From Campylobacterales bacterium (GTDB lineage: Bacteria > Campylobacterota > Campylobacteria > Campylobacterales > Sulfurimonadaceae), in assembly GCA_016938735.1 (NCBI GenBank), contig JAFGUB010000015.1, positions 4,806 to 68,805 of the forward strand: DNA of 64,000 nucleotides, given 5' to 3'. Both the position numbers and the translations under genes were made by a program. Numbering within the stretch: position 1 is the stretch's first letter; each line of letters opens with the position of its first letter. Positions 20,705-63,547 of this stretch are shown in pieces. The notes beneath the pieces were generated by a model. That model was not told the origin of the DNA, did no database searches, and was given only the letters and a program-made list of their open reading frames with translations.

Positions 20705-21679
20705 ATGCGCCCTCTTTGGTTGCTGCTGATTGCCCTTAGCCTTAGCGCTCAGGAGCATCACTTCAAGATCACACAACATTTCGCCATCGCACGCGACGCG
20801 GTCCGTCTGTGGATTCCGCTGCCGATGCGCACCGCTTATCAGCACTTCGGCGATCTGAAGGTATCGGGCAATTTCGCCTCTCAACAGCTCCAAGAAGGAG
20901 AGGCGCCGACGCTTTATCTCGCTTTTGAAGGCAGCGAAGCCAACGCTACGATCAGCTTCACGGTGGCGACGACGGATCGCTACGGCCCAACGCAAAGCGA
21001 TGAGAACGTCTCGCGCTTTTTGCTTCCCAGCACCCACATCCGCACCGACGGCATCGTGGCGCAAAAGGCGCACAGCATCACCCAAGGCGCACAAAGCCCC
21101 GCCGAAAAAGCGTCGCGCATCTTCGAGTGGATCGTTCAAAACATGTTCCGCGACCCAAAGGTGCGCGGCTGCGGTCTTGGCGACGCCGCCGCGACGCTGG
21201 AATCGGGCTATTTAGGCGGCAAATGCGCGGATGTGAGCGCCGTCTTTGTGGCGCTGCTGCGCGCAAGCGGCATACCCGCCCGCGAAGTATTCGGCATCCG
21301 CGCCGCGCCGTCGCGCTACGCCAAAGCCTACGGCGCAGAGGGTGACATCACCGCCGCGCAGCACTGCCGTGGCGAATACTACCTCGAAGATCAAGGGTGG
21401 ATTCCCGCCGATCCTGGCGACGTGACCAAGCTGATTTTGGTCGAAAATTTAGAGCGCAACGCCTCGAGGGTGCGCGAAGAGGCCGCACGCCAATCAAAGA
21501 GCTGGGAGATGAACTGATTTGCCTACAACCACGCACGCGACCTCATCCTCTCACCCCGCCCGATTCAATACCCCCTCTCGATCTTCTCCTACCCCTACGC
21601 CGAATCGGGTGATGAACCGCTCGATTTTTACAACGCCCGTGATTTTTCCTACCGCATCGTCTCGGAAGTGCTGCGATGA
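20705..21679 (+). pseudogene. Transglutaminase-like lipoprotein interrupted by an in-frame TGA at 21515-21517
   Basis: The signal peptide and Cys-His-Asp core (GKCADVS...HCRGEYY...ADP) lie in ORF 20705..21517. The same frame stays open after the TGA (FAYNHARDLILSPRP...DFSYRIVSEVLR) and ends at 21677-21679, overlapping the next ATG as ATGA. Confidence 0.7.
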
Positions 21680-21981
21680 GGAGCGAGTGGCTGGGGCTTG
21701 GGGCGCTCTTTTCGGCGCTGCTTGCCCTCTCATGCTGCGGCAGCGCCCTTCTTTTTTTGCTCTTTGGGGTTTCATTCGCATGGCTGGGGGCACTAGAGGC
21801 GCTTGCGCCGTACCGCATCTATTTTGAGCTGCTCGCGCTGACGCTGCTGGCTTGGGCGTGGATTCGGCTCTACCGCCGCCGCGCCTGCGCACTTGGCCGC
21901 AAAAGGACGGTCTTTTTTCTCAGCCTCATCACCCTCACACTCGGCGTCTTGCTCGCGCTGCCTTATCTGCCGTGGGCATGA
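21676..21981 (+). CDS. MerT-like membrane transport protein
   Basis: 101 aa with three hydrophobic helices. A CC pair sits in the first helix (ALLALSCCGSALL), as in mercuric transporter MerT. Confidence 0.6.
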   Translation: MRSEWLGLGALFSALLALSCCGSALLFLLFGVSFAWLGALEALAPYRIYFELLALTLLAWAWIRLYRRRACALGRKRTVFFLSLITLTLGVLLALPYLPWA

Positions 21982-22247
21982 TGAAGCTGCTTTTGCTGCT
22001 GCCGCTGGGGCTTTGGGCGCAGACGCTGAGCCTCTACGAAGTGCCCAAAATGCACTGCCCTCTCTGTACGGTCGCCATTAAAAAGAGCCTGCTCTCGCTT
22101 GAAGGGGTAGAGCAGGCGCAGGTACGTCTGGCCACCAAAGAGGCACATATCATCCACGACGACGCCATCGATGATGCGACGCTCAAAGCCGCCATAGAGC
22201 GTGTCGGCTACGAAGGGATTCTGCGCGAACGCACGGCGCTCCCCTGA
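21978..22247 (+). CDS. Periplasmic heavy-metal-associated (MerP-like) protein
   Basis: The start ATGATG overlaps the MerT-like stop. Signal peptide MMKLLLLLPLGLWA is followed by an HMA fold with the MHCPLC metal site. Confidence 0.6.
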   Translation: MMKLLLLLPLGLWAQTLSLYEVPKMHCPLCTVAIKKSLLSLEGVEQAQVRLATKEAHIIHDDAIDDATLKAAIERVGYEGILRERTALP

Positions 22248-22310
22248 TGCTGCCTATTATTTCATCCGCACGCCAAAGCGATCCCTACCGAATCCCCCTA
22301 TAATGAGCTC

Positions 22311-22955: not shown

Positions 22956-22962
22956 TAGGCAC

Positions 22963-24345: not shown

Positions 24346-24403
24346 TCGTCGCCGCTTTTGGGTATGATATGCCAATTTATCCTATCTAAAGAGACGACGT
24401 GCC
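24346..24403 (+). promoter_or_regulatory. nuoA promoter/leader module (copy A of a duplicated ~80-bp element)
   Basis: TCGTCGCCGCTTTTGGGTATGATA contains a TATGAT -10-like box at 24363-24368. AAAGAGACGACGTGCC contains an RBS-like AAAGAGA plus the nuoA GTG at 24399. It is repeated at 38887-38944. Confidence 0.4.
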
Positions 24404-24758: not shown

Positions 24759-25279
24759 GTAACCATCTTTTAGGGGATGCCATCATCACCACACGCCTTG
24801 AGGCGGTGATCGACTGGGGACGTCAAAGCTCGCTTTGGCCGATGGTCTTTGACACGGCGTGCTGCGCCATCGAGTTTATGGCGGCGGCGGCGAGTCGCTA
24901 CGACGTTTCGCGTTTTGGGGCGGAGGTGCTGCGCTTCTCACCCCGCCAGGCCGATCTGCTGCTGGTTGCGGGCACCATCAGCTACAAGCAAGCCCCTATT
25001 TTGAAGATGATCTATGATCAGATGCCCCAGCCCAAATGGGTGATCGCTATGGGCGCGTGCGCTTCTAGCGGCGGCTTTTATGATAACTACACCACGCTTC
25101 AAGGCATTGACGAGATCGTCCCCGTGGATGTTTATATCGCAGGTTGTCCGCCGCGCCCCGAAGCGGTGCTCGATGCCATCGTGAAGATTCAGGAGAGTTT
25201 GTGGAAAGAGAGAGCGTGCGAAGAGCGCCACGCGGGGTTCAAGGGGCGGTTTGATGATGAGGCGCTAACTCAGCTCTAA
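24749..25279 (+). CDS. nuoB: NADH-quinone oxidoreductase subunit B
   Basis: 176 aa. Cluster N2 ligand blocks are [14 protein letters not shown] and GCPPRPE. It overlaps nuoA by 10 nt. Confidence 0.95.
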
Positions 25280-28200
25280 GGCGATCATCTCGGCCTGTTT
25301 GAGCACCGTTTCGGTCGCCAGTGCTTGCATGTCGGGCGGATAGCCGAACTGACGCAGCACCCTTTTGACGGCGATTTTGAGTTTTGCCCGTACGCTCTCT
25401 TTGATCGTCCAGTCGATGCTGGCATTTTCGCGCACCTTTTGGGTGAGCACCACGGCCAGCTCGCGCAGCACCTCTTTGCTCATCAGCTCTTTTGCACTCT
25501 CATTGTTTGCCACTGCCGTGTAAAAAGCGTACTCAAAATCCGTAAGGCCCAACTCACGCGGCTCTTGATCCATAGCCTGAATCTCTTTGCCGAGGTGGAT
25601 CAGCTCATCGATCACTTCCACCGCCGTGATGATTTTGTTGTGGTATCTTTTGATCGAATCTTCCAGCATCTGCATCAGCGATTTGCTTTGCACCAGATTG
25701 GTTTTTGATCTGGTTTTGATCTCGTCGCCCAGCAGTTTTTTGAGCACCTCAAGCGCGATATTTTTATGCTTCATATTTTTGACTTCCAGCAAAAACTCCT
25801 CTGAAAGTATCGAGATATCGGGCTTTTTGATCCCGCTTGCGTCAAAAATATCGATGACCTGCTCGGTGATGAGCGCTTTATCGATCACCTGACGAATCGT
25901 TGTCTCAATCTCTTCATCGCTTCGATCACCTGAGGGCTCAAACTTCACAAGACGCGCCTTGACGGCCTGAAAAAAGGCCACCTCGTCTTTGGCATCCATC
26001 GCCTGATCGTGCGGAATGGCGATGGCAAAGGCGCTTGAGAGCGCGTTTACCTCTTTGATGTACCTTTTTTTGCCCTCTTCGAGCCCTAAAATATGCTCTT
26101 CGGCTTCTAGTATCAGAGATAACTTTCCTCTTGTATCTTGCTCAAAGTAGTGCTCATACGCAAACCCGTGATACATCTGCGCAACGATTTCAAGTTTTTC
26201 CAGCATCAGCGCCACGGCCTTCTCCTGCGCCAGTGCGGGATCACCCCTGCCGCCGCTGTCGCTGTAAAACGAGAGCGCCGTTTTAAGATCGCTTGCAATG
26301 CCCAGATAGTCCACCACCAGCCCGCCCGGCTTGTCGCCATGCACCCGATTGACCCGCGCGATGGCCTGCATGAGGTTGTGCCCGCGCATGGGCTTGTCGA
26401 TGTAGAGCGTGTGCATTGAGGGCGCGTCAAAGCCCGTGAGCCACATATCGCGCACGATCACAAGGCGCAGCGGGTCATGATCGTCTTTCATGCGGCTCGC
26501 CAGGGCGCGTCTTTGCTCTTTGGTGGTGTGGTGTTTGGCCAGCGCCGCACCATCGGCACTGCTTGAGGTCATGATCACCTTGATGACCCCCTGACTCAAA
26601 TCATCGCTATGCCACGCAGGGCGCAGCGCGACAATCTCATCATACAGCGCAACGGCGATGCGGCGGCTCATGGAGACGATCATCCCCTTGCCCGCAAAGA
26701 CCTCCTGACGCAGTTCAAAGTGCGCGACGATATCGGCGGCGACCTCCTTGATGCGGTTGGCACTCCGATGAGGGCTTCTAGGCGCGTCCATTTCGCTTTA
26801 GCCTTCTGGCTCTCGTCTAGCTCCGATAGCTCCTCATCAAGCGCATGTACCAGCTCCTTGCCTTCCGCACTGAGGTTGATCTTTGCCAATCGGCTCTCGT
26901 AGTAGATCTTGACCGTTGCGCCGTCTTCGACCGCTTGGGCGATGTCGTAGATGTCCACATAATCCCCAAAGACCGCAGGCGTGTTGACGTCGCTGCTCTC
27001 AATCGGCGTGCCCGTAAACCCCAGATAGGTAGCATTGGGCAGGGCGTCGCGCAGATATTTGGCAAACCCGTAGGTGATCTCGCCCGTGTTTTTGTCTATT
27101 TTGGCGCGAAATCCGTACTGCGTGCGGTGGGCTTCATCGGCGATCACCACGATGTTGCGCCGATTTGAGAGCCGCTCATAGACGTTGCCCTCTTCAGGGG
27201 CGAACTTTTGAATGGTAGTGAAGATTACGCCGCCGCTTGCGACGCCCAGCTTCTCTTTGAGTTCGCTTCGCGTCTCGATCTGCACGGGTTCTTGTCTGAG
27301 CAGATTGGCGCAGCTTGCGAAGGTCTCAAAAAGCTGATCGTCGAGATCGTTTCTGTCGGTGATGACCAGCACGGTGGGGTTATCCAGCGCCAGAACGATT
27401 TTGCCCGTATAAAAGAGCATCGAAAGCGATTTGCCGCTCCCTTGCGTGTGCCATACGACCCCGCCTTTTTGATCTCCGCCTTCGCCGGCGGCTTTGAGCG
27501 TTCTCTCTACCGCTTTGTTGACGGCGTAGTATTGGTGATAGGCGGCGAGTTTTTTGACCGTCTCGATGGTGACGATGCCGTTTACATCCTCTTTTTTTGA
27601 TTGCTCAAAGACGATAAAACTACGCACCAGATCGAGCAGCACATGGGGCTGGAGCATCCCATTGATCAGGGTCTCTAGCTGCGGCGTCAGTCTGGAAACT
27701 TCGCTCACGCCGTCGCTGCTCTTCCACGCCATGTAGCGGCTAAGCCCCGCGCTGATTGTTCCCGCTTTGGCCTCGCAGCCGTCGCTGATGACACAAAAAG
27801 CGTTGTAGGTAAAGAGTGAGGGAATGAGCGATTTGTAGGTGCCGATCTGCTGGTGCGCGGAGGCGATGGTGGCGTTTTCGCCGGCGGCGTTTTTGAGCTC
27901 CATCACCACCAGCGGCAGACCGTTGACAAAAAGGATGATGTCGGGGCGTTTTTGATGGCCGTTTTCAATCATCGTGAATTGATTGACAACGACAAAATCA
28001 TTGCTATTCACATCGTCAAAATCTACCAGATGCACGATCTCGCCGCGCGTGATCCCCTCGCGCTGCACATCGACCTTGACCCCCTCCACCAAGAGCTTGT
28101 GAAAGGTCTCGTTGTCGCGCAGCAGTTCGCTTGATTTGATGCGCTCAAGTTGCTTGATGGCATCTTGCAGAGCGCTTACATGTAAGGAGGGGTTGATTTT

Positions 28201-28344
28201 TTCCAACGCGCCTAGCAGCCTCTCTTTGAGCAGAACCTCTTCATAGTTTCGCTCAAGATCGGGAGCGTACATGTAAGCGTAACCAAGCTGCTCAAAAAGC
28301 TCGATTGCGTAGAGTTCTATCTCATTTTCGGTGATTTTAGTCAT
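25265..28344 (-). pseudogene. hsdR: Type I restriction enzyme R subunit, split by a frameshift near 26760-26770
   Basis: The N-terminal ORF (26680..28359; likely start MTKITENEIE at 28344) has the DEAH box IADEAHRTQYG. The C-terminal ORF (25265..26791) has helicase motif [10 protein letters not shown]. The frames join as ...TRLEALIG / [13 protein letters not shown] with a 1-nt offset. Confidence 0.85.
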
Positions 28345-29288
28345 TTGTTCACTTCCCAATATCCGGATTTCAGGCTCCCGACTCTCTTGATAGCGCCTTC
28401 GTCTTTGAGCTTTTTGATCACTTTTTTGACCCCTGACTCGCTCATGGAGAGTTTCCCCATGAGCTCATTGATGGTAATGCGGCTGTTGTCTTTCATCAGT
28501 GCCAAAACTTTTTGATCACTTTTATAGTTACTTTTCTGGTCACTTTTGAGCGTATTGGCGATAGACTCCAAAATCATCTCAAGCATAAACTCGATAAACG
28601 GCGTGCTCTCTCCAAGAGCCGTGGACTCTTCTATGGCTTTATAGTACGCTTCTTGATGCTCCCTTACGATGCTTTCGGTCGGTAAAAGTGCAAAAATCGG
28701 ATTGAAGCTATGTAAAATCACACTTTGCCAAAGTCGCCCGATTCGACCGTTGCCGTCACCAAACGGATGAATAAACTCAAACTCATAGTGAAAGATGCAC
28801 GATTTCAAAAGCATATGCTCATCACTCGCTTTGAGCCATGCAAAAAGATCATCCATCAAATCATTTATCCTATTTGGCTGCGGGGCAATATGCGCTCCGA
28901 CGGATACATTGACGCTTCTAAACGTTCCTGCCGTCGTGAGTATCTCGCCCATCAAGATTTTATGTGCAAGCAACAGATCATTTAAGTCATCATACCTATA
29001 CGCTTCGAGTTTATCATAGGCTTTTATTGCGCCGTTGACTTCGGCAAGCTCTTTGAGTGTTCCTAAAACTCTTTTGCCATCCAAAATAGCGGTAATTTTT
29101 TCCTCACCCAGAAAATTACCCTCTATCTCCAAAGTACCCGCTAATGTTTTGATGCGGTTCTTTTTTCGTAGCATCGGGCTTACTTTTGTAGCGCCGCCAA
29201 CTTGAAGCTTGGTAAGTTCTTCACTGATTTGAGTAGAGAGTTTTAATATTTTTGAGGTTATTTTGTAGGGTGGGGTGTAGTTATTCAT
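28341..29288 (-). CDS. Fic family protein with C-terminal winged-helix domain
   Basis: 315 aa with Fic motif HPFGDGNGRIGR. The C-terminal block NSRITINELMGKLSMSESGVKKVIKKLKDEG is MarR-like. Its stop overlaps the hsdR ATG (ATGA). Confidence 0.85.
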   Translation of the reverse strand: MNNYTPPYKITSKILKLSTQISEELTKLQVGGATKVSPMLRKKNRIKTLAGTLEIEGNFLGEEKITAILDGKRVLGTLKELAEVNGAIKAYDKLEAYRYDDLNDLLLAHKILMGEILTTAGTFRSVNVSVGAHIAPQPNRINDLMDDLFAWLKASDEHMLLKSCIFHYEFEFIHPFGDGNGRIGRLWQSVILHSFNPIFALLPTESIVREHQEAYYKAIEESTALGESTPFIEFMLEMILESIANTLKSDQKSNYKSDQKVLALMKDNSRITINELMGKLSMSESGVKKVIKKLKDEGAIKRVGSLKSGYWEVNK

Positions 29289-30163: not shown

Positions 30164-30205
30164 CGCTTGCCTTTGGTTTGGTCATTTTAGGCTACCTTGC
30201 TTTGC

Positions 30206-30237
30206 TTACATGTAACGAAAGAAAAGCTTACATGTAA
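30206..30237. repeat. Two TTACATGTAA copies 22 bp apart (CTTACATGTAAC ... CTTACATGTAAT)
   Basis: Exact 10-mers at 30206-30215 and 30228-30237. They lie in the gap between rhuM and the AT-rich block. Confidence 0.95.
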
Positions 30238-30268
30238 TGCGGGGTTTGAATGATTGGTGGTGGTCATA

Positions 30269-30802: not shown

Positions 30803-30835
30803 GAGTTTATCATTGAGCTTTTTCTCTATTTGTTC

Positions 30836-38813: not shown

Positions 38814-38886
38814 AAGAGATGTTTCCGTGTGTGTTTTTGAAGCATAGATTGTAGCCAAAAGTTGATCCCCACACCTTGAAATCCAT

Positions 38887-38944
38887 TCGTCGCGGCTTTT
38901 GGGTATGATAGTGGCAATTTTTACCGACAAAGAGACGACGTGCC
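38887..38944 (+). promoter_or_regulatory. Copy B of the nuoA promoter/leader module, placed in front of nuoC
   Basis: TCGTCGCGGCTTTTGGGTATGATA has 1 mismatch to copy A, with TATGAT at 38904-38909. AAAGAGACGACGTGCC is exact. The GTG at 38940 opens an 11-codon remnant, [11 protein letters not shown], whose TGA overlaps the nuoC ATG (ATGA). Confidence 0.45.
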
Positions 38945-38971
38945 CCAAAATCTCCCGATACGGATTGATGG

Positions 38972-39208
38972 ATGAGTGAAGTACCCTACAGCGATCTTTT
39001 TGCCCACGCACAGTCACTCAAAAGCGAAGGCTACACCCTCCTACTCGACATCGTAGGCATCGATTACCTCTACCTGCCGCGCAAAGAAGCCAAGCGTTTT
39101 GGGGTGATCTACCATCTGCGCCATGGGGATTTCGACCGTGTGGTTTCTTTACATGTAAGCGTGAACGAAGATGAGCCGATAAGTAGCCTGTCCCCTTTAT
39201 TTAGATAA
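38972..39208 (+). pseudogene. nuoC: nuoC 5' fragment, terminated by a TAA created inside a tandem duplication
   Basis: The 78 codons encode a NuoC-like N-terminus (LLLDIVGIDYL...YHL). The stop at 39206-39208 lies in the duplicated copy of GATAAGTAGCC... Confidence 0.75.
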
Positions 39209-39241
39209 GTAGCCTGTCCCCTTTATTTGTCCCCTTTATTT
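39178..39241 (+). repeat. Nested tandem duplication (25 nt + A + 25 nt + 13 nt) inside nuoC
   Basis: GATAAGTAGCCTGTCCCCTTTATTT occurs at 39178-39202 and 39204-39228, followed by GTCCCCTTTATTT at 39229-39241. The net insertion is 39 nt, which is in frame. Confidence 0.9.
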
Positions 39242-40624
39242 GAGAGTGCGGATTGGTTGGAGCGGGAGGTGTTTGATCAGTTTGGGCTGCGTTTTAGCGG
39301 CCATCCCAACCTCAAACGTGTGCTCAACCATGAGGAGTTTATCGGCCATCCGCTGCGCAAAGATTATGCCATTACCAAAGGCCAATACTGCACCCAGACT
39401 CAGGATTTGATGGATGAGATGGCGCCGCTGCTTACATGTAAGCATCTGGATATGGAGCGTGACAACCTTATGCTGCTCAACCTCGGCCCCTCACACCCCG
39501 CCAGCCACGGCACGCTGCGCACCCTTGTGGCGCTTGACGGCGAAGAGATCAAGGCGGGGGTGAGCGAGATCGGCTATCTGCACCGGGGCTTTGAGAAGTC
39601 GTGCGAAAACCACACCTATAACCAGATCGTCCCCTACACCGACCGGCTCAACTACTGCTCGGCGCTCATGAACAACATCGGTTTTTGCAAGGCGGTAGAG
39701 GAGATGATGGGCATCAAGCTGCCGGATCGTGGGATCTTTATCCGTGTGATCCTAAGTGAGCTTTCGCGCATTATCGACCACCTCGTCTGCCTCGCGGCGG
39801 GGCTGCTGGATATGGGGGCGCAGACCAACTACTGGTACCTCTTCAACCCGCGCGGGCTGGCCTATGACTTTCTCAGCCGCCTTACGGGGGCGCGGCTCAC
39901 CAACTCTTTTATGCGCATCGGCGGCATGGCGCACGATCTGCACGCGGGGTGGGAAGCGGAGCTAGAAAGCGTGCTGCGCTCGGTCGAGAGTGGCGTGGAT
40001 GAGAGCCTGCGCATGAGTGAGCACAACCGCATTTTTATCGACCGAACCCAAAATGTCTCGTGTGTGAGTGGGGAGCGGGCAGTGAACATGGGCTGGAGCG
40101 GCCCCAATCTACGTGCGTGCGGCGTCGCGTACGATCTACGTTTTGCCGCGCCTTATGACTACTACGACACCTTTGATTTTTCGATGGTCGTAGGCTCTTC
40201 GGGGGACACCTATGATCGGCTGATGGTGCGCTTTGAAGAGATCAAAGAGAGCCTCAGCATCATTCGTCAGGCCATAAAACGCATCCCTCAAGGAGCGGTC
40301 AGCGTTGCCGATCACGCCGTGACGCTGCCTAGCAAAAGCGCCGTTTATGGCACGATTGAAGGGGCGATGAATCAGTTTAAACTTATCTTCGAGGGGGTCA
40401 AAGTGCCCAAAGGAACCCACTACGGCGCCACCGAAGCGGCCAACGGCGAGCTGGGATTTACCATCATCAGTGATGGCAGCGGCACGCCCTACCGCGTGAA
40501 AGTCCGTGCGCCCAGTTTCATCCACATGGCAAGCTACCCCAAGATCATCGAAGGAAGCCAAATCGGCGATGCTATTTTGACACTTGGAAGCCTCAATATC
40601 ATTGCCGGGGAGATGGATCGATAA
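39227..40624 (+). CDS. nuoD: NuoC C-terminal part fused to NuoD (NuoCD), downstream of the duplication
   Basis: The 465-aa ORF uses TTG in the track. [18 protein letters not shown] is the NuoC core. After a linker, [14 protein letters not shown] onward is full-length NuoD. Confidence 0.85.
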
Positions 40625-43591: not shown

Positions 43592-43658
43592 CGCAGCACT
43601 GCCCTCAGACCCTGCAAAGCGATCTGAACACGCTTGAAGCTTATCTCAAGGCGCTCTT

Positions 43659-49562: not shown

Positions 49563-51040
49563 TCTATGAGCTCTTTTTGATTTTGCCGATGATGCTGATC
49601 GTTCTAGGAGCGCTGATGCTCATGCTGCTCAGCCACCGCGAAGCACCGCTAAACCGCAACATGCTGAGCGTGCTGATCCTTGCACTTGCGTTTGGCCTCA
49701 CCCTCTCGCGTCTGGGCGAAGCGCACAGCGTTTTTGTCTTTGAGGCCATCTTTGGGCGCAGTTTCATCGTCGATAGCTTCTCTACCCTCTTTGATCTGAT
49801 GATACTCGGCGGCGCAATGCTCACCCTGCTCATCAACCACGACTACTTCAAAAGCCGCCACTACTTTGATGGCGACTTCTTCGCGCTGGTGCTCTTTGCG
49901 GTGTTCGGGATGATGGCGCTCTCTCACGCGCATGAGCTGATCAGCGCCTTTATCTCGCTGGAGATCGCCAGCCTCAGCATCTACGCGCTGGTAGGCTACA
50001 ACAGTGACAACCCAAAAAGCCGCGAAGCGATGATGAAATATGTGGTGCTCGGCTCGCTCGCGGGGGCTTTGTTTATGCTGGGCCTGGCGCTGATCTACGG
50101 CGCGACGGGTTCTACTGAATTGGGAGCGATTGCCGCACACATCGCTGCGCACCCCCAAGACGCACACACGATGCTCATCATCGGCGGCTTTTTCGTGATG
50201 GTGACACTTTTCTTTAAGATCGGCGCCGTCCCTTTTCACGCTTGGGTCGTCGATGTCTACCACGGTGCACCGCTGCCGGTGACCATGCTGATGGCCTCAA
50301 CGTTTAAAATCGCCCTCTTTGCCGTGATCTTGCGGATCTACCTAGGCGACTTCGCCGCGCTGGGCGATTTTTGGTCACTGCCGCTGCAGATACTGTGTGT
50401 GCTTACCCTGATTGGCGGCTCATTTTTGGCCCTCTCCCAATCCAACATCAAGCGGATGCTCGCCGGCTCTTCGGTGGTGCATGCGGGTTATATGCTCATC
50501 GCCCTCAATGCGATCACGCTGGGAAATTTTAATGCCTCTGAGTCCATTCTTTTTTATCTTATGAGCTACTTTATCAGCTCCGTTGGGGCCTTCGGGATAC
50601 TAAGCTTTTTGGCCGCACACGAGCACAAACAGCTCACATTTGAAGACTTCAAAGGCTTTGGCTACAGCCACCCCTATCTTGCGGCGATGATGAGCATCTT
50701 CATGCTCTCGCTGGCGGGCTTTCCCTCGACCATCGGCTTTTTGGGCAAATTCTATATCTTCACCGGAGCCATCGAAGCGGGGCAGATCGCTTTGGCCGCA
50801 CTTGGGATCTTTGTCGCGTTTGTGTCGATCTTTTATTACTTCAGACTGATTGCGACGATGTACTTTTACGACACCCCAAAAACAGAGCAACACTTTGGTT
50901 TTGATACGACAACGGTATTGATTTTATTGATGGCGATTTTAAGTATTTGGGGCGGAATCGGTACGGCGCTGCTGCCCTACCTGCCGACGCCAGACGCGCT
51001 GATCGAGCTCTCCCGCCACGCGATTACCAGCCTCGATTAG
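49559..51040 (+). CDS. nuoN: NADH-quinone oxidoreductase subunit N
   Basis: 493 aa from a GTG overlapping the nuoM stop. It is an antiporter-like subunit and the last gene of the cluster. Confidence 0.9.
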   Translation: MIYELFLILPMMLIVLGALMLMLLSHREAPLNRNMLSVLILALAFGLTLSRLGEAHSVFVFEAIFGRSFIVDSFSTLFDLMILGGAMLTLLINHDYFKSRHYFDGDFFALVLFAVFGMMALSHAHELISAFISLEIASLSIYALVGYNSDNPKSREAMMKYVVLGSLAGALFMLGLALIYGATGSTELGAIAAHIAAHPQDAHTMLIIGGFFVMVTLFFKIGAVPFHAWVVDVYHGAPLPVTMLMASTFKIALFAVILRIYLGDFAALGDFWSLPLQILCVLTLIGGSFLALSQSNIKRMLAGSSVVHAGYMLIALNAITLGNFNASESILFYLMSYFISSVGAFGILSFLAAHEHKQLTFEDFKGFGYSHPYLAAMMSIFMLSLAGFPSTIGFLGKFYIFTGAIEAGQIALAALGIFVAFVSIFYYFRLIATMYFYDTPKTEQHFGFDTTTVLILLMAILSIWGGIGTALLPYLPTPDALIELSRHAITSLD

Positions 51041-51456
51041 AGGCGGCGGTCCAGCACTGTTTCGTCCTGGATACGCGCATCGGGAGTGGCTTTGGCGACG
51101 TCAAGAATCTGAGAAAGCCGCCCTAAAACGATCTGCACGGAGTTGGAAGGGTCAAAAAGATCAATCGCGATAGCGCTGCTGCGGTCGTTGAAGTAGTTGT
51201 CAAGGTTGAGCAATAAATTTTGCGACGCTTTGTAGGCATTGGCGGCATTGGTGTGGGCAAACACGATAAAGTAGTGGTGCGCATCATAGCGCACAAACTG
51301 ATCAGAAAGGCGTAAATAGCGCGCCAGCGTCTCGACACCGAGTGCTCCATGATGATACAGCAGTGCAAAAGCGGTCTCTACCTTGTACCGCTGATAGGTG
51401 TAATAACTTCGGTTAATCTGCACCCGAATCCGGTTGGGAATCTAATCATCCATCAT
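51037..51456 (-). pseudogene. Hypothetical protein gene with TAG at codon 5 after a strong SD-ATG
   Basis: AAGGAGGTG (51460-51468, minus strand) is followed 3 nt later by ATGATGGATGAT, then TAG (51442-51444). The same frame continues as IPNRIRVQINRSYY... (track ORF 51037..51423, GTG start without RBS). Confidence 0.45.
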
Positions 51457-55085: not shown

Positions 55086-55775
55086 ATGGAACATCGACAC
55101 CACACCATACTTAACCAAAGTCGAGTACTACTGGCAGAAGACAATTTAGAGGTAAGAGTTAAATTCGCCAAAATGCTCAGCCTCTTTTTTTGTGAAGTTA
55201 TAGAGGCAGCCAACGGTCGTGAAGCACTCGAATATTTTCATAGCAAAAAACCCGATGTCGTCATCACCGATGTGCGTATGCCGGAGACGGATGGCATCAC
55301 TTTGGTCCAAACGATTCGCAAAACTGACCGTGAAATCCCCATCATCATTACCAGCGCTTATAGTGACAAGGAGTATCTGCTTGAATCGACTCCCCTTTTA
55401 TTGGTCAACTATTTAATCAAGCCGATTCAGCATGCGCAGCTTCTTAGCTCACTAGAACAGTGTTCCGAACTGCTGCAGCAACGTAGACCGCTAGAGCCGA
55501 TTAGACTCACACCGCCATACATTTATGATGGTCTCAATAAGCGCATCTACCGCGCCGAACAAGAAATCAAGCTAACCCGAAAAGAGATTGCACTGATAGA
55601 GCTGCTCATCGAACATCGAGGTCGATTGCTCCATAAAGAGACGATCGAGAAACATCTCTATTCCAATGGAGAGGTACCCGCATCGGCAATCAAAAATATC
55701 ATGTTCAAACTGCGCCAAAAAATTGGAAACGAACTCATCGAAACCATTGATCAGCTTGGCTACACCATCGCATAA
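55086..55775 (+). CDS. Response regulator, OmpR/PhoB-type (paralog of 3503..4204)
   Basis: From MEHRHHTILNQSRVLLAEDN, with VVITDVRMP (acceptor Asp) and a C-terminal LTRKEIALIELL...QLGYTI winged helix. Confidence 0.85.
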   Translation: MEHRHHTILNQSRVLLAEDNLEVRVKFAKMLSLFFCEVIEAANGREALEYFHSKKPDVVITDVRMPETDGITLVQTIRKTDREIPIIITSAYSDKEYLLESTPLLLVNYLIKPIQHAQLLSSLEQCSELLQQRRPLEPIRLTPPYIYDGLNKRIYRAEQEIKLTRKEIALIELLIEHRGRLLHKETIEKHLYSNGEVPASAIKNIMFKLRQKIGNELIETIDQLGYTIA

Positions 55776-57664
55776 CGGGGTAAGTCAATCCTAAAACAGG
55801 CGCCGTTATCTACATTGTATGCCTCGATCTCCCCATGAAATTTTTCACGGATGATCAAACGGGACATATATAACCCCATCCCAGAAGAGCCTTTTTCTCC
55901 GCTGTATAATTCAAATATCTTCTCAATCGGTTCGATGGTAACTCCTCCGGCGTTATCACAAATCACAATGCGAACACACGATTCATAACTCTGAAGCACA
56001 ATGCGTAGTTGGGGCCCTGGGGTGTTGCGCATACGAAAGGCCTCTACACTGTTTTGAAAAATTGCCAATAAAACCTATGCGAAATAGTTACTCTGCCCAT
56101 GACAATGAATCGTCTCATCAAGCTCAAGCTTCAGCCCGACCTGTAGCAAATGACACGATGACTCAACCAACAACAACGCTCTTTTAATCGATTCGGCGGG
56201 TACGAACAGGTCACTTTTTCCCTCTTTGTAGAACTCCTCAAACGTCGTAATCGTCTGCGACATAAAAGCGACTAAGGCTTCATTGTTATTCAGCGTATCA
56301 CTCCACTGGCCCTGCTTAAGAACCTCCTTGAGGTACATCGTATTAAAATTCAGCTCACTGAGGGGTTGGCGCCATTGATGGGCGATCATACCGATCATCG
56401 CACCCATCTGTGCCATACGGCTCTGTTCAACGATCAGTTGGTGCTGTTGCTGATTCTGTTTTACCGCTTCATCAATGCGCAAAGCCAAATGCTGCTGATG
56501 TTCGGTCAAAGTGGCATTGGTCTCTTTGAGTTTATGCTCCATCGTGCGTTGACGATCAAGAAAATCATTGTAAATCCTAGCCAGTGCGCCAACTTCGTCG
56601 CGACTGCGCAACAGTCGAATATCATCAATCTTTTCGCCCTCTTGAATATGATAGAGCATCCTGCGAAAAGGACGGATAATCGTATACTCTAAAAGGATCA
56701 AAAAGAGCAGGAAAAAGAGAGAGCCAAATACCATCACATAAACAAAGTTTTCTCTAAGCTCTGCCAAAACCCTACTATAAAGGCGCGTATCAATACCGAT
56801 TTTAGCGATAATGGCCCAGCGATTGGGCTCTTCTTGAATGTAGGTGTAGAGCTCTGTCGTATGCTCATTTTGTATGAGATAGTCCTCCTTGTTTTGTGCG
56901 ACACGATGCACTCGCGACGCTTCTACATCATGAAAACGGCTCTGTTCTTGAAGATAGTACTGTTTGTTTGGTGCCGAGATATTGGGCATTTTATCGAGAC
57001 GCACCACATAGTTTTAAAAATCCGCGAAAACATCTACAGACTCTATCGGCGAATCAGTATAAGTGACGTGAATGCACTGCTGTTTGAGTGCGCTGATCTT
57101 CTCATCAAAAAAACCAAGCTCCAAAACACTCCCCGTTTTGGTATCTAGCACCCCATAACTATAGATGCGGTACTCCTTGGTCATCAAGTCAATCGATGGC
57201 ATACTCAAAACAATCATCTGATTGAGGCGTACCGATTCAATATCGCGCTTCGCTCCCGCAAGAGCATTCATATCTAATCCCATATCGAGCTGATAGGTGG
57301 TAGCTTCAACGCGATTGTCAGCATTGATCACAAAAAGATGCAGCTTGGTGTGGTTTGGAAGTTTTTGCTGAAGCCTAGTTTGAACATCAAAAAGATTACT
57401 CTGGGCACCACTTGCAAGCATAGCGCTTGCCGCTTCATGCAGTGCTCGATACTGGGCCGCCTGCTCCTCGACAAGAATCTGAATCATAGACTCACAGTGG
57501 GCAAATGTCTCTTGAATCCTATTTGTTGCTTCGGTAATCGTGGCGTCTTTGAGTAGGTCATAATGCTGTTTTGTCTGAGCATAATGACGATAAAAAGCCA
57601 AAGCCACCAGCATCATAAATAAAAGCTGCATCCAAAGAAACTTGGCTTTAAGCGTCATACGCAC
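55760..57664 (-). pseudogene. Sensor histidine kinase (paralog of 4170..6077) broken by two in-frame stops
   Basis: Three collinear ORFs lie in one frame. They are the sensor part (57014..57664), the HAMP/H-box part with MIAHQWRQPL (56075..57007) and the HATPase part with DNAGGV, GMGLYMS (55760..56068). They are separated by TAA at 57014-57016 and TAG at 56075-56077. Confidence 0.8.
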
Positions 57665-58098: not shown

Positions 58099-58785
58099 CT
58101 ACAACCCCACCTCAAAAATCAGCAGATGCGCCTCTTCAAGTGCTTCTAGATTCACGGCTTCGCCCTCGATCTGCGCTTCATCGCCACTGCGCAGCGTGAT
58201 CTCACCCAAACGCACCGCGCCGCTTGCCACCAGCATCAGCCTACCCCATCATGCAGCAGGTGCCTCCAGTACGATGCGCTGCTTGGGCTCCAAGATCAGC
58301 GAATCGATAGAGGCGTCTTGATCGATGGCGATGCCGCCCTCGCCCACCAGCCGCACGCACGTTCCGCGCTGCTCAAACGCATCAAAACGGCGCTGCTCGT
58401 AAGCGGGAGAGAGCCCTTTGGTTTTGGGGGAAATCCAGATCTGAAAAAGGTGCAGCGGCGTTTCACCCGCGTTGCGCTCGGAGTGGACGATGCCGCTGCC
58501 CGCGCGCATGAACTGCACCTCGTCGCGCCCGATGATGCCGCGATGCCCCTGATCGTCGGCGTGCTCTAGCTGCCCTTCAATCACCACCGTGATGATCTCC
58601 ATATCGCGGTGCGGGTGCATTCCAAAACCGCCGCCTTGCGCGATGATGTCGTCGTTGATGACACGCAGCGGCCCATAGCCCATACGCGCCCTATCGACAT
58701 AACGGTCAAAACTAAACGAAAAGCGGCTCTGCAGCCAGCCGTGATCGGCGCTACCGCGCGCGCTATGGGGGTGAATACGGATCAT
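58099..58785 (-). pseudogene. Pirin-family (YhhW-like) protein with in-frame TGA at 58249-58251
   Basis: The 178-aa ORF has the pirin cupin block GFGMHPHRDMEIITVVIEG...HSE. The same frame continues after the TGA for 49 codons (WGRLMLVASGAVRLGEITLRSGD...LLIFEVGL) to TAG at 58099-58101. This gives the usual ~228-codon length. Confidence 0.8.
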
Positions 58786-59287: not shown

Positions 59288-59310
59288 AGCACCTTGTTAC
59301 ATGTAATCTT

Positions 59311-60264: not shown

Positions 60265-60324
60265 ACCCTCCTCTTCTAGGTTTCTAATACAACGCTACTC
60301 CGGCGCGGCTTAATAAGATGTAAA

Positions 60325-60422
60325 GTCGAGATCACTCCGCCAAGCCACCAAAGCAATCGACGTCGGGGTGCTGTGTATCGTTGAACCGGTGATGGGGGCG
60401 CGCTTTTGCCGTTTTTATGTAT
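60325..60422 (+). repeat. Decayed partial copy of the 3' part of the 150-aa gene (source 59041-59268)
   Basis: GTCGAGATCAC[T/C]CCGC, a 59-bp block (60344-60402 versus 59104-59162, about 55/59 identical) and GCGCTTTTGCCGT[T/C]TTTATGTA are collinear. Internal deletions separate them. Confidence 0.8.
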
Positions 60423-60441
60423 GTCGCGTCGATTCCGCTCC

Positions 60442-61443
60442 TTAGGGTTGAAGCGCAAAGACCGAATCGAGCTGCGCTTCGCTGAGGCGCACGCCCATGA
60501 AATGCTCATAAAAGAGGCGTGCTTCACGGCGCACATCCACATCCGCAAAGCGTTCTGGATAGAGCTTCGTCGCCATCCAGAGTCGCCCCAGCGGTTGTTC
60601 CGGAGTGTAGTGCGTCCAGAAGTGAGCGCCCATCGGCACGATATAGACCGCCTTATTTTGTACCGCTTTGAGCAAGGCGAATTTCGGCTCACGGTAGGCC
60701 AGTGCCACATCCTGCGCCGACCAAACGAAAAGCACATCCGGATTCCACGCATAGAGCTGCTCTAGAGTGATGTTAACGTGTTCCATCGGAACCTGCGCCG
60801 CAACGGCTGTACCTCCCGCGTCACGAATCATCGTATTGGCCGTTGAGACCATCGGCAAATTGAGCTGCCCCAGCCGCAGATAGAGTGCGCTAGAGCGCTC
60901 TCCTTGGTACTCCGCCATCGCTTGATCGATACGCTCCCTGATCGACTTCTCCCATGCGCGGTAGCGCACGACGCGCTCTTGCATTCCGAAAAGTTGACCC
61001 AAAAAAGCGACGCTCTGATCAATGCTCCGCTCGCCTTGCCAGTTGATGACGGCGAAGGTATAACCGCGTTTTTGGAGCACATCCGCCGCCAGCGTGTCAT
61101 TCACCAGCGCCACGTCTACATGTAAGGTCGAGAGTTTTTCAAAATCGGGCGTCCAGTCAGGCGGATTACGCGACACCTGCGGACGGCTAAGCACCTTAGG
61201 ATCGAACCATTGTTGATGCTTCCAAAAGGGCATTTTAGAGAGCGGCGGCTCTGCGCCGTTGACGAGTGTATCGGCTTTGCCGAAGAGATAGATGAAGCTG
61301 TTGAGCGCCGGAGTACCGCCGACCGTGGCAACATGCCTGACGTCCGCAGGTACGATCACTTCGCGCCCCGCCCTATCGACCAGCATCCTGCTTTCTGCGG
61401 ACAACCACAGCGCTGCGCTTAGCAGCAGTATCAGCGCACGCAT
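60442..61443 (-). CDS. ABC transporter periplasmic substrate-binding protein (iron-siderophore/cobalamin type)
   Basis: 333 aa with a signal peptide. The PBP type 8-like pattern is RHVATVGGTPALNS...PDVLFVW. It is adjacent to the TonB-dependent receptor. Confidence 0.8.
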   Translation of the reverse strand: MRALILLLSAALWLSAESRMLVDRAGREVIVPADVRHVATVGGTPALNSFIYLFGKADTLVNGAEPPLSKMPFWKHQQWFDPKVLSRPQVSRNPPDWTPDFEKLSTLHVDVALVNDTLAADVLQKRGYTFAVINWQGERSIDQSVAFLGQLFGMQERVVRYRAWEKSIRERIDQAMAEYQGERSSALYLRLGQLNLPMVSTANTMIRDAGGTAVAAQVPMEHVNITLEQLYAWNPDVLFVWSAQDVALAYREPKFALLKAVQNKAVYIVPMGAHFWTHYTPEQPLGRLWMATKLYPERFADVDVRREARLFYEHFMGVRLSEAQLDSVFALQP

Positions 61444-61444
61444 A

Positions 61445-63547
61445 TCAGTAGTGCAGATTCAGGCTTGCCACGACCGAAAAGGGGGCACCCTGATAGTAGT
61501 TTGTCGATCCCGGACGGGTGTCGTCTAGGCTGTTGGCGACCACGCCGACATATTTTTGGTTGGCGAGATTTTGTACGGCCAGCGTCACTTCGGCATGTTG
61601 CGGATCGATCACATAAGCGCCCGTCAGATCCACCACCGCATACGGATGAACCGTCTCTTTGTTTTCGGCGTCTCCGAAACGTTCGCCGACATAACGCAGC
61701 ATCGGACTCAGACGCCACCCTTGCGCTTTGAACGTCAGCCCCACTTTTGCGCCGACACGCGCCACATCGGGAATCTGCTTGCCTTTTGAAGCGAGATAGC
61801 GATCACTTGATAGCAAGATATCCTCATCAAAGGCGAAGCGGTTGTAATAACCCGAGGCAAACATCCCCAGCGCCTTGGAGAGTATCAGGTTCAGCTCGGC
61901 TTCGGCACCCATCGAAGTGGCCGAAGCGTTGCTTTTGTAGTAGCTCAGCTCCAGCGCCGGATCGTAGACCGTCACCTGTTTATGATCGTACGCGCCGTAA
62001 AAGAGGCCCACTTTGGCACCGACCGTATCGTCTGCGTAGCGCACGAAGAGCTCGACGTTATCCGAAGTCTCAAGCTTGAGCTCATCCCAAAGATCCTGCA
62101 GCGATATTCCTGCGGCGGTGAATTTAGCGGTATTGGAGTTATAGACCGACCATAGCGGCCCCTGCCACGGATTGGCGAAATTACGGCTGTAACCGCCGCC
62201 TAGAATAAGCGCGGAGGAGAGATAGCGCTCAACGATCAGGCTTGGCAACACGACCGCTTCGTCGCTTGCATCGACCTGCATTCCGGCATACAGATGCGTC
62301 TGATCGAAGGCCACATCGTAACTGAGATAGGGTGAACTTGATACACGCTGATCGATATCGTTGAGCATGGCGATACTTTTGTACTCAAGCGAACCGTTGG
62401 GTTTGATTGCAAACATCTTGGTCATCTTCGGCGGCGGCGTACTCTCTAGGCTCTGATACCACCACCCCGCCAGAAGCGTGCCGCCCAAAAGCGGATACTC
62501 CGCCTCGACGAGTGCGCCGTAGGCCTCTTGCGTCTGATCAATGCGCTGAACCATTTTGTTGGAAGGGTTGCCCGTATAACGCTCTCCTTCGTTGCCGAAC
62601 ATGTAGGGTTTGAAGTGCAGCGTCGCCTCACCCAGCGTTACATGTAAGCCCGCTTTGAGGGCGTATTCGTCAAACGACTGTCGGTAAAAATCGTAATAAT
62701 TGATGTCCTCAGCCGCATTGCCGGTGAGTTTGGTGTTGTAATCTTTGGCATAATTTTAGGAGAGTGCTTTGGTTTGCGCATAGGTGAGCGGGCGGTACTC
62801 ATGTCGTTCAAAACGGTTGTAGGCACCGAAGAGATCCGCTTTGACCGTATCGCCGAGATCCCACTCGATCATCGCCGAGAAGTTGTCGCGTTTGATATCG
62901 CCCTCCCCGCGCCACTTCTCATTCGACGCGCGTGAACCGGAAGCAAACAGACCAAATCCGCCATAAACGCCGCTGTCCAGACGCAAAAAGAGTTTGTTGT
63001 AGCGATCCGAACCCAGCGCGGCGGAAAAGTGCGCCGACGGTACGGCGGATGGGTGCTGAATCTTCATATCCAGCGCTCCGGCGGTACTGCCCAGACCCAA
63101 AGCGCGGTTGACGGGGATGATGCCGTTGGCAAACGATACCCCCTCGATATTCTCACGATCTACGACGTAGCCCGATCCGCTCTGACCGACGTTAACCGCG
63201 AAAGGGACGCCGTCGATCGTCGTGGAGATGCGGCTGAATGTATCTCCTACCTGTCCGCGAACCCGTAGAATATTCTGATCGACGGTGAGCGCGTAGGGGT
63301 CATGCGTCTCGACGTTGACTGATGGCAGCATCAGCAAACTCTTAAAATAGTTGGTCGATGTCGTCGCTTGCAGGGTCTCTAGCATCTGCGCACTGACCGT
63401 ACGTTCCATCACGCCGTCACTGCCCGAAAACGGCTCTTGCAACGCTCCGCTGACACTCACCGGAGCAATCTCAACACTCTGAGCCTGCAGCAGTGTTGCG
63501 GCGACCAGAGAGCCAAAAGCCGCTCTGCTTACTGAAAATCCAAACAT
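61445..63547 (-). pseudogene. TonB-dependent outer-membrane receptor with in-frame TAA at 62756-62758
   Basis: The signal peptide and plug domain lie in ORF 62756..63547. The same frame continues after the TAA (NYAKDYNTKLTG...) into the barrel ORF 61445..62602. The total is about 700 codons. Confidence 0.8.

What the first reader, a model, noticed from the sequence alone, without database searches (positions are those of the whole stretch)
20705..63547. Unusually high load of nonsense codons in recognisable genes, compatible with C-to-T / G-to-A transitions
Among roughly 60 genes I count seven in-frame stops. They are in the transglutaminase-like gene (TGA), nuoC (TAA inside a duplication), the 128-aa gene (TAG), the kinase (TAA and TAG), the pirin (TGA) and the TonB receptor (TAA). 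hsdR adds a frameshift, and nuoG may add a 3' frameshift. Core genes (serS, ftsH, his, nuoD-N) are intact. Base-substitution stops are not the typical signature of sequencing errors, which are mostly indels. At least one stop aligns to Gln (CAG to TAG). The others can all arise by single transitions (CAA to TAA, TGG or CGA to TGA). Possible explanations are ongoing genome decay after a bottleneck, a mutator or deamination-type mutational episode, or deliberate inactivation of accessory functions.
Basis: inference. Interest (0 to 1): 0.6.

Follow-up and report, generated by a model that had tools for sequence, protein, structure and literature searches.

The report
Many recent nonsense mutations, one lineage
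This Sulfuricurvum-like sulfur bacterium carries about thirty genes cut by single premature stop codons, while a sister species has none in the same gene set, and two leads (a newly acquired cytosine methylase and a broken MutS-HNH repair gene) point to how they arose.

Summary
So are the hsdR frameshift and the suspected nuoG 3' frameshift. Six truncated products occur letter for letter in an independent (Logan) assembly, so the assembler did not create them.

The load is genome-wide and specific to this lineage. A reciprocal tblastn census against 92% of a same-genus genome gives about 21 clean interior stops in 1678 tested genes here and 0 in 1784 there (P=2e-7). Only 2-3 frameshifts turned up.

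The spectrum leans to G:C>A:T. 15 of 27 stops align to Gln, Trp or Arg, and TAG is over-represented. This exceeds equal rates but fits an ordinary strong transition bias. Several window stops (pirin, TonB receptor, the 128-aa gene) are not supported as transitions, and the nuoC stop lies in a 39-bp repeat-type insertion.

Two new leads emerged:
- Four stops sit at the inner C of CCWGG, a roughly 40-fold hotspot. The genome alone among 21 relatives has an EcoRII-type C5-methylase, and no Vsr.
- The MutS7 (MutS-HNH) gene is intact in nearly all relatives but broken twice here.

The parts
20705..21679 (+). Transglutaminase-like gene with a premature TGA at 21515-21517 (codon 271 of 324).
   Evidence: PF01841 hit on the N-terminal part. 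The in-frame continuation reads 'EMN*FAYNHARD...'. Intact 324-345-aa homologs have an invariant Trp at the stop, and the tail after the stop is 97% identical to the closest homolog. The 270-aa product is present in both the NCBI and Logan assemblies.
25265..28359 (-). hsdR (type I restriction R subunit) with a 1-nt frameshift in the ORF overlap at 26680-26791. The site is not in a homopolymer.
   Evidence: Two overlapping ORFs. The G001 HsdR aligns across the junction in two frames.
38972..40624 (+). Fused nuoC-nuoD gene. It is interrupted by a 39-bp insertion (39203-39241) that preserves the frame but carries a TAA at 39206-39208.
   Evidence: Sequence. NuoC/NuoD profile hits on both sides of the insertion. 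G003, G002, G011 and G016 read '...ISTLSPLYEAADWLERE' without the 39 bp. The insertion copies the staggered 'AAGTAGCCTGTCCCC+N7' repeat architecture that occurs 28 times in the genome. The 78-aa product is present in the NCBI and Logan assemblies.
42326..43662 (+). nuoG with a 3'-terminal -1 frameshift near 43583-43587 (G3->G2). The conserved last ~25 residues are read in another frame.
   Evidence: G002 NuoG continues '...EGVVQHCAQAV...LERLS*'. The window encodes '...GIAQHCPQTL...LKALL*' in a different frame, ending at the nuoH start.
51037..51456 (-). Hypothetical gene (the '128-aa gene') with a TAG at codon 5 (51442-51444).
   Evidence: Read-through 'MMDD*IPNRIRVQIN' aligns to the G001 ortholog 'MMNKTIQNRIAVQIK' at 52% identity over 139 aa.
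55760..57664 (-). Sensor histidine kinase (~634 codons) with two in-frame stops: TAA at 57014-57016 and TAG at 56075-56077.
   Evidence: Three ORFs share one frame. HATPase_c lies after the second stop. The TAG aligns to the N-box Gln in ~35 paralogs and G001 kinases.
58099..58785 (-). Pirin/quercetinase-like gene with a TGA at 58249-58251.
   Evidence: Pirin domain before the stop and Pirin_C_2 after it. An intact 88%-identical gene exists in a Sulfuricurvum MAG, with Leu (CTC) at the site. G001 has Gly there.
61445..63547 (-). TonB-dependent receptor with a TAA at 62756-62758 between the plug and the barrel. It also lacks ~39 aa in frame relative to homologs.
   Evidence: Plug and barrel Pfam hits on the two ORFs. 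736-744-aa homologs align across the stop, with D, S or V at the site, and show the missing segment. The fragments are present in the NCBI and Logan assemblies.

Best explanation
The stops are real mutations. They are recent and specific to this lineage.

Shown:
- This Sulfuricurvum-like genome has accumulated about 30 single-nucleotide nonsense mutations. Most hit genes carry only one lesion, and the sequence after the stop is still well conserved.
- The hit genes are dispensable sensory, respiratory and accessory genes: kinases, MCP, EAL and HD-GYP proteins, a response regulator, SoxB, a NiFe-hydrogenase large subunit, Fdh-like and TtrB-like subunits, carbonic anhydrase, pirin, a TonB receptor, a transglutaminase-like protein, and the EcoRII-like endonuclease itself.
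- A same-genus genome has none in the same orthologs.
- Part of the supply is deamination of 5-methylcytosine at the inner C of CCWGG.
- One of the seven window stops (nuoC) has a different origin: a 39-bp repeat-type insertion.

Inferred:
- The mutations come mainly from base damage or misincorporation that yields G:C>A:T changes, not from replication slippage. That would explain why frameshifts are about ten times rarer than nonsense codons.
- The 5mC is made by a lineage-specific EcoRII-type methylase, in a clade that has no Vsr to correct the resulting T:G mismatches.
- The mutations persisted because selection on these functions is relaxed, or because drift was strong (a constant niche, a bottleneck or long cultivation).
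For: Presence and continuity of every window stop.

The same truncated products occur in two independent assemblies.

Census: ~21 interior stops in 1678 tested genes in G000 against 0 in 1784 in G001. There are only 2 credible frameshifts in the census, plus the nuoG 3' end. The reference-free screen gives 42 junctions against 12, with TAG at 12 against 0.

Spectrum: 15 of 27 stops align to Q, W or R. TAG accounts for 15 of 27 against 28% among natural terminators.

CCWGG hotspot: 4 events fall at sites that make up 0.76% of possible G:C>A:T nonsense sites (P~4e-6). This is the classic behaviour of 5mC at CCAGG (PMC11603525, citing Coulondre 1978).

Methylase context: an HTH-C5 methylase plus an EcoRII-C endonuclease is inserted between genes that are adjacent in G001. 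EcoRII-C is found in 1 of 21 relatives. No Vsr is found in 13 genomes.

Single lesions in genes 75-93% identical to G001. No informational genes are among the hits. The three UDG genes are intact.
Against: - No reads could be inspected.
- The Logan assembly may derive from the same reads as the NCBI assembly.
- Only 4 of ~28 stops are explained by CCWGG. The source of the rest is inferred, not shown.
- About 12 stops align to residues that do not fit a G:C>A:T origin, although alignment to a ~70%-identical ortholog is a weak guide to the ancestral codon.
- Hit genes are only weakly less conserved than the background (P=0.05). They include the only SoxB copy (83% identical to G001), so the 'dispensable' label is an assumption.
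- The control is a single genome.
- The long-term CCWGG depletion is mostly W>S change, not deamination products.
- The specificity of the methylase was not measured.
Confidence: 0.58

Rival explanations
1. Loss of the MutS7 (MutS-HNH) repair protein made the lineage a mutator, and the nonsense load is its footprint. For this to work, MutS7 would have to act mainly on base-base mismatches (G:T), not on insertion/deletion loops.
For: - G000:C36 ~69504-72496(-) encodes MutS_I, MutS_III, MutS_V and HNH domains. It is broken by a T5->T4 frameshift and by a TAG aligned to Gln.
- Every one of 12 relatives has a ~975-1026-aa open frame, and 142 of 151 family genomes have the gene, nearly always ~1000 aa open.
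- No MutS1, MutL or Vsr exists in the clade, so this is the only candidate mismatch sensor.
- Two lesions in one gene suggest early inactivation.
- MutS7 is proposed to be a self-contained mismatch repair enzyme (PMC3166940).
Against: - Classical mismatch-repair loss raises homopolymer indels strongly, and only a small share of transitions create stops. It therefore predicts far more frameshifted than nonsense-cut genes (own knowledge of mutation-accumulation studies). The observed ratio is the reverse, ~27 to 3.
- MutS7 function has never been shown in bacteria.
- With ~1% of genes hit, MutS7 could simply be one of the casualties.
- This is one genome only, so it is a correlation.
Confidence: 0.2
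2. The stops are consensus errors. The cause would be low coverage or damaged (deaminated) template DNA, or modification-related miscalls at methylated CCWGG sites in a long-read assembly.
For: - No read-level check was possible.
- The lesions are single and base-substitution-only, and they occur in otherwise well-conserved genes.
- Some hit genes look important, for example the only SoxB.
- Nanopore consensus errors are known to concentrate in CCAGG/CCTGG motifs (PMC6591954).
Against: - Identical truncated products appear in an independently built assembly.
- Frameshifts are almost absent, which excludes an unpolished long-read assembly, where homopolymer errors come next after Dcm-motif errors (PMC6591954). 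The 62 contigs ending in repeats look like a short-read assembly.
- No ribosomal, tRNA-synthetase, polymerase or other informational genes are hit.
- Signalling genes are over-represented among the hits.
- Two genes carry two or more lesions, including a 39-aa deletion.
- A ~40-fold CCWGG hotspot is what uncorrected 5mC deamination produces in vivo. Random read damage would not produce it.
Confidence: 0.12
3. An external or episodic mutagen produced a burst of G:C>A:T changes. Candidates are alkylating or nitrosating chemistry, an interbacterial cytosine-deaminase toxin, or laboratory mutagenesis.
For: - The pattern is base-substitution-only, enriched for G:C>A:T.
- The lesions are recent and single.
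Against: - About 40% of stops align to residues that do not fit G:C>A:T, whereas alkylating mutagens give nearly pure G:C>A:T (own knowledge).
- Apart from CCWGG there is no shared flanking motif such as the TC context of deaminases.
- Ogt-like genes are present.
- Nothing is known about the history of the sample.
Confidence: 0.07
4. The stops, above all TAG, are read through by a suppressor tRNA or by recoding, so the genes are still functional.
For: TAG accounts for 15 of 27 internal stops but only 28% of natural terminators. All six Gln-aligned stops are TAG.
Against: - All three stop codons occur internally.
- ARAGORN finds no tRNA with a CUA, UCA or UUA anticodon among the 39 tRNAs found. 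The tRNA set is incomplete.
- TAG remains a common terminator of conserved genes, 399 of 1431.
- The TAG excess is what CAG>TAG and TGG>TAG transitions predict.
Confidence: 0.03

Closest known systems
5-methylcytosine deamination hotspots at Dcm/EcoRII sites (lacI amber hotspots at CCAGG in E. coli; Coulondre et al. 1978, as cited in PMC11603525)
   Same: Stops are created at the inner C of CCWGG: CAG>TAG on one strand and TGG>TAG through the other. The per-site enrichment is about 40-fold. A C5-methylase of the EcoRII type is present.
   Different: - Here it is seen as fixed natural pseudogenes, not as selected mutants.
- The clade has no Vsr very-short-patch repair at all.
- The methylase specificity is inferred from the partner endonuclease family and from CCWGG avoidance. 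It was not measured.
- The hotspot explains only about one seventh of the stops.
Mismatch-repair-deficient mutator lineages (mutS/mutL mutants in Pseudomonas, E. coli, Salmonella)
   Same: The only MutS1-like gene is inactivated. There is an elevated load of inactivating point mutations, with transitions prominent.
   Different: - The gene is a MutS7 (MutS-HNH) of untested function.
- There is no MutL.
- Frameshifts are rare, whereas they dominate in classical mutators.
Pseudogene accumulation in recently niche-restricted or bottlenecked bacteria (e.g. Mycobacterium leprae, Shigella, Salmonella Typhi)
   Same: Many accessory, sensory and metabolic genes are cut while the core machinery is intact. 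The lesions are young.
   Different: - The scale is far smaller: about 1% of conserved genes.
- The genome is not reduced (2.85 Mb) and its GC (52%) is higher than in relatives.
- IS expansion is not evident.
- Nonsense codons outnumber frameshifts about ten to one, the reverse of the usual pattern (own knowledge).
MutS7 lineage (epsilonproteobacteria, giant viruses, octocoral mitochondria; PMC3166940)
   Same: The domain set is MutS I + III + V plus a C-terminal HNH, about 1000 aa, and the gene is conserved across the family.
   Different: This copy is a pseudogene. No functional data exist for bacterial members.

Membership tests
Nonsense-interrupted pseudogene (each of the six point stops in the window) | Homologs align continuously across the stop, with recognisable coding sequence or a domain on both sides in the same frame. 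| tested here: met
   - Transglutaminase-like gene.
- Kinase TAG.
- Pirin.
- TonB receptor.
- 128-aa gene.
- Kinase TAA: supported only by the shared frame and the length of the paralog. No homolog spans it.
G:C>A:T transition origin of the stops | The stop aligns to Gln (CAA/CAG), Trp (TGG) or Arg (CGA) in homologs. | tested here: inconclusive
   15 of 27 stops meet this, including the window's transglutaminase gene (W) and kinase TAG (Q). 12 do not: K x3, Y x2, E, V, L/G, D/S/V, T, R>TAA and W>TAA. The orthologs are too distant for firm polarity.
5mC (Dcm/EcoRII-type) deamination hotspot | Mutations are concentrated at the second C of CCWGG. | tested here: met
   4 events fall at 0.76% of candidate sites (P~4e-6).
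5mC (Dcm/EcoRII-type) deamination hotspot | A C5-cytosine methyltransferase specific for CCWGG is present and active. | tested here: inconclusive
   PF00145 methylase with an N-terminal HTH, next to an EcoRII-C endonuclease. CCWGG O/E is 0.14. Specificity and activity cannot be tested with these tools.
5mC (Dcm/EcoRII-type) deamination hotspot | Very-short-patch (Vsr) repair is absent or failing. | tested here: met
   There is no PF03852 match in G000 or 12 relatives. The control genomes do give matches.
MutS7 lineage | [quoted passage not shown] | tested here: met
   Pfam finds MutS_I, MutS_III, MutS_V and HNH_2/DUF968 on the three fragments. The G001 ortholog is 1006 aa.
Mismatch-repair mutator genome | The mismatch-recognition gene is inactivated. 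| tested here: met
   A frameshift plus a TAG. The open frame is 333 aa here against ~1000 aa in relatives.
Mismatch-repair mutator genome | An excess of homopolymer frameshifts accompanies the transitions. | tested here: not met
   Only mutS7 (T5>T4), nuoG (G3>G2) and hsdR are frameshifted, against ~27 nonsense codons.
Stop-codon reassignment or suppression | A suppressor tRNA is present, or one stop codon is absent from gene ends. | tested here: not met
   There is no CUA, UCA or UUA tRNA. All three stops terminate conserved genes.

The most novel reading that the evidence does not exclude
This genome is a natural knock-out of the bacterial MutS7 (MutS-HNH) protein. Its substitution-rich, frameshift-poor mutation load would then be the first phenotype attributable to that enzyme. 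MutS7 would be a self-contained repair system for base-base (G:T-type) mismatches, including those from 5mC deamination, in a clade that has no MutL, MutH or Vsr.
Probability: 0.2. Interest if true: 0.75.

Novelty: new member of a known kind. Interest (0 to 1): 0.5.

Why it matters
- The finding shows that a free-living chemolithoautotroph can carry a young wave of gene-killing point mutations. The hits include its only SoxB and a hydrogenase, so metabolic predictions from this genome should not count those genes as functional.
- It gives a natural example of how a newly acquired cytosine methylase, in a clade without Vsr, creates mutation hotspots that destroy host genes.
- It supplies a testable lead for the long-unknown function of MutS7. 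That family is shared by epsilonproteobacteria, giant viruses and octocoral mitochondria.

Tried and rejected
- Same-species relatives for polarising the changes. The metagenome scan found nothing closer than 56% aa. The genome-contig scan gave one Sulfuricurvum MAG at 88% aa.
- First census without a frame filter. It was swamped by shadow-frame ORFs and was replaced by a best-frame filter.
- Suppressor tRNA: none found.
- Nanopore Dcm-motif artefact: rejected, because homopolymer frameshifts are lacking (PMC6591954).
- The idea that the genome's strong CCWGG depletion reflects mass deamination. Rejected: G001 CCWGG sites mostly correspond to CCSGG here. Deamination products make up 5% in both directions.
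- Test that hit genes are less conserved than the background: only marginal (P=0.05).
- Other repair genes. The three UDG genes are intact and Ogt-like genes are present. MutL and Vsr are absent clade-wide, so they do not explain a lineage-specific effect.
- No homolog was found that spans the kinase TAA.

Full report
**Context**

The window is C54:4806-68805 of a 2.85-Mb, 62-contig, 52%-GC genome estimated 99.7% complete. The closest public hit to its pirin gene is a Sulfuricurvum MAG at 88% aa identity. The relatives have the small genomes of Campylobacterales. I therefore treat the organism as a Sulfuricurvum-like member of that order; assigning it to Sulfurimonadaceae is my inference from the Sulfuricurvum hit.

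**The observation**

- Transglutaminase-like gene. It ends at a TGA (21515-17). The frame then continues for 53 codons. Full-length homologs of 324-345 aa align straight across the stop, with an invariant Trp at that position. The tail after the stop is 97% identical to the nearest homolog.
- Kinase. Three consecutive ORFs share one frame. The TAG at 56075-77 replaces the near-invariant Gln of the N-box in about 35 paralogs. The ATPase domain follows it. Nothing spans the TAA at 57014-16.
- Pirin. The TGA separates the Pirin domain from Pirin_C_2. The intact Sulfuricurvum ortholog has Leu (CTC) at that position and G001 has Gly.
- TonB receptor. The TAA lies between the plug and the barrel. 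Homologs have Asp, Ser or Val there. The gene also lacks about 39 residues in frame.
- 128-aa gene. It has a TAG at codon 5, where its G001 ortholog has Thr.
- nuoC. The TAA is of another kind. It lies in a 39-bp insertion (39203-41) that four relatives lack. The insertion repeats a staggered 'AAGTAGCCTGTCCCC + 7 nt' architecture found 28 times in the genome.
- Frameshifts. The hsdR frameshift is real. So is the suspected nuoG 3' frameshift: G002 reads the conserved C-terminus in frame, while the window encodes it one frame off after a G3->G2 change.

**Are the stops in the data or made by the assembler?**

As a substitute I looked up the truncated products by exact sequence. Six of them are recorded from both the NCBI assembly and the independently built Logan assembly:

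- the 270-aa transglutaminase fragment
- the 178-aa pirin fragment
- the 263-aa plug
- the 78-aa NuoC head, which ends in the insertion
- the 128-aa product
- the 421-aa NuoG

This excludes an assembler or polishing artefact. It does not exclude an error present in the reads themselves.

**Is the load unusual?**

I fetched 2.40 Mb (about 92%) of a same-genus genome, G001. I then ran reciprocal tblastn of all ORFs, keeping only the best-scoring frame at each place.

- G000 shows about 21-22 clean, single, interior stops in conserved context among 1678 tested genes.
- G001 shows none among 1784. All of its 'events' are N-terminal ORF over-extension or multi-stop shadow frames.
- The difference gives Fisher P=2e-7.

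A reference-free screen gives the same picture. It looks for stops with coding signal on both sides and no start within 12 codons. It finds 42 such junctions in G000 and 12 in G001. TAG accounts for 12 against 0.

Credible frameshifts are few: mutS7 and hsdR in the census, plus the nuoG 3' end.

The window holds a quarter of the verified stops. This is partly because I examined it more closely, and partly because 51-63.5 kb is accessory DNA. The Sulfuricurvum MAG lacks 59.3-63.7 kb.

**What is hit?**

Family searches on the intact G001 orthologs, together with the alignments, identify:

- the only SoxB
- a NiFe-hydrogenase large subunit
- a formate-dehydrogenase-like molybdoenzyme
- a TtrB/PsrB-like Fe-S subunit
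- an alpha carbonic anhydrase
- an MFS transporter
- an MQO-like flavoprotein
- chemotaxis, EAL and HD-GYP signalling proteins
- a response regulator
- an integrase
- a methyltransferase

No ribosomal, tRNA-synthetase, polymerase or similar gene is affected. Most hit genes have a single lesion and remain 55-93% identical to G001. The events therefore look young.

The hit genes are only marginally less conserved than the background (P=0.05). The case for a selective filter therefore rests on function, not on conservation.

**Spectrum**

Of 27 point stops, 15 align to Gln, Trp or Arg.

| Model | Expected share from Gln, Trp or CGA-Arg codons | P for 15 of 27 |
|---|---|---|
| Equal rates | 18% | 1.6e-5 |
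| Transition/transversion ratio per path = 2 | 31% | 0.007 |
| Transition/transversion ratio per path = 4 | 47% | 0.25 |

TAG makes up 15 of 27 internal stops, against 28% of natural terminators (P=0.002). This is as expected from CAG>TAG and TGG>TAG changes.

So the data are compatible with a strong G:C>A:T bias, but they are not beyond what a transition-biased spontaneous spectrum could give. Several stops, three of them in the window, do not look like transitions. ARAGORN finds no suppressor tRNA.

**A specific hotspot**

Four stops lie exactly at the inner C of CCWGG. Two are CAG>TAG in CCAGG. Two are TGG>TAG in CCTGG, hitting the hydrogenase and SoxB. Such positions are 0.76% of all possible G:C>A:T nonsense sites (P about 4e-6). 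This is the textbook signature of 5-methylcytosine deamination at Dcm/EcoRII sites (PMC11603525, citing Coulondre 1978).

- The genome has one C5-methylase, with an N-terminal HTH, next to an EcoRII-C family endonuclease.
- The pair is inserted between genes that are adjacent in G001.
- The endonuclease family occurs in none of 20 other relatives.
- The endonuclease itself carries an in-frame TAG 27 codons before its end.
- No Vsr homolog exists in G000 or 12 relatives.
- CCWGG is seven-fold under-represented. Comparison with G001 shows this is mostly W>S change rather than deamination products, so I do not use it as evidence for deamination.
- A nanopore Dcm-motif artefact (PMC6591954) is unlikely, because homopolymer frameshifts are nearly absent.

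**Repair genes**

The census turned up a MutS-family gene with a frameshift (T5->T4) and a TAG aligned to Gln.

- Its domains are MutS I, III, V plus HNH, which is the definition of the MutS7 lineage (PMC3166940).
- Each of 12 relatives has this gene with a 975-1026-aa open frame, plus a MutS2. None has a MutS1.
- 142 of 151 family genomes have the gene, almost always about 1000 aa open.
- MutL is absent from the clade.
- The three UDG genes are intact, and Ogt-like genes are present.

The broken MutS7 is an attractive cause. However, classical mismatch-repair loss should produce many more frameshifted than nonsense-cut genes, and the opposite is seen. MutS7 would have to be specific for base-base mismatches. 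I keep this as the novel reading at about 0.2.

**Conclusion**

The best-supported reading is a recent, lineage-specific accumulation of real base-substitution nonsense mutations in dispensable genes. It is enriched for G:C>A:T changes. The hotspot at CCWGG sites is demonstrated; its attribution to methylation by the lineage-specific EcoRII-type methylase is inferred. One stop is due to a repeat-type insertion. The ultimate driver of the majority is inferred, not shown. Candidates are time-dependent base damage under relaxed selection or drift, MutS7 loss, or an episodic mutagen. Sequencing error is not formally excluded without reads, but it fits the evidence poorly.

Noticed in passing
window 39178-39241; also G000 C1, C5, C9, C15, C28, C31, C40, C42, C44, C45, C48, C56: There are 28 copies of the motif AAGTAGCCTGTCCC(C), each followed by a variable ~7-nt word that is then re-duplicated in staggered fashion (unit, unit, partial unit). 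Copies often lie at contig ends. In C56 and C42 they occur as inverted pairs about 1.1 kb apart around a small low-GC ORF. The motif also occurs in other genera (G001, G006, G014, G025). The native nuoC coding sequence happens to match the motif, and the 39-bp insertion there has the same architecture. This suggests off-target action of an unidentified site-specific recombination or transposition system.
   Followed up: partly
window 25265-39017: A 13.7-kb type I restriction-modification island lies between nuoB and nuoC. It holds the frameshifted hsdR, hsdS, hsdM and two YhcG-like genes, and has 36% GC at 28-36 kb. In G003 nuoB abuts nuoC directly. About 45 bp upstream of nuoA (24359-24403) recurs upstream of nuoC (38900-38944) at 83% identity.
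   Followed up: partly
window 24399-51040 (nuo cluster): This NDH-1 operon looks degenerate as a whole. It is split by the island, nuoC is interrupted, and nuoG is frameshifted at its 3' end. A second, divergent NuoCD-like gene exists on contig C62 (32% identity).
   Followed up: no
G000:C36:69504-72496 (-), locus L278: The MutS7 (MutS I/III/V + HNH) gene is broken by a T5>T4 frameshift and a TAG. It is intact in nearly all of 150 family genomes.
   Followed up: yes
G000:C40:2558-5096: An EcoRII-type restriction-modification pair (HTH-C5 methylase plus EcoRII-C endonuclease) is inserted between thioredoxin/Crp-like genes and hsp20. It is unique among 21 relatives. The endonuclease has an in-frame TAG 27 codons before its end.
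   Followed up: yes
G000:C47:36741; C4:38925; C3:55229; C13:43520; C9:42774: Energy-metabolism genes are cut by single stops: the only SoxB, a NiFe-hydrogenase large subunit, a TtrB/PsrB-like Fe-S subunit, an Fdh-alpha-like molybdoenzyme and an alpha carbonic anhydrase.
   Followed up: partly
window 59294-63697: The lipoprotein, ABC-binding-protein and TonB-receptor segment is absent from the syntenic contig of the closest Sulfuricurvum MAG (L011). In that MAG the pirin region is joined directly to the NadC-like gene's end.
   Followed up: partly
window 61445-62755: Besides the stop, the TonB receptor lacks about 39 residues in frame relative to its 736-744-aa homologs. The missing segment lies between '...THLYAG' and 'MQVDASD...'.
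   Followed up: no
whole genome G000: ARAGORN finds only 39 tRNAs, with none for Phe, His or Ile. Some tRNA and rRNA regions are therefore missing from the assembly.
   Followed up: no
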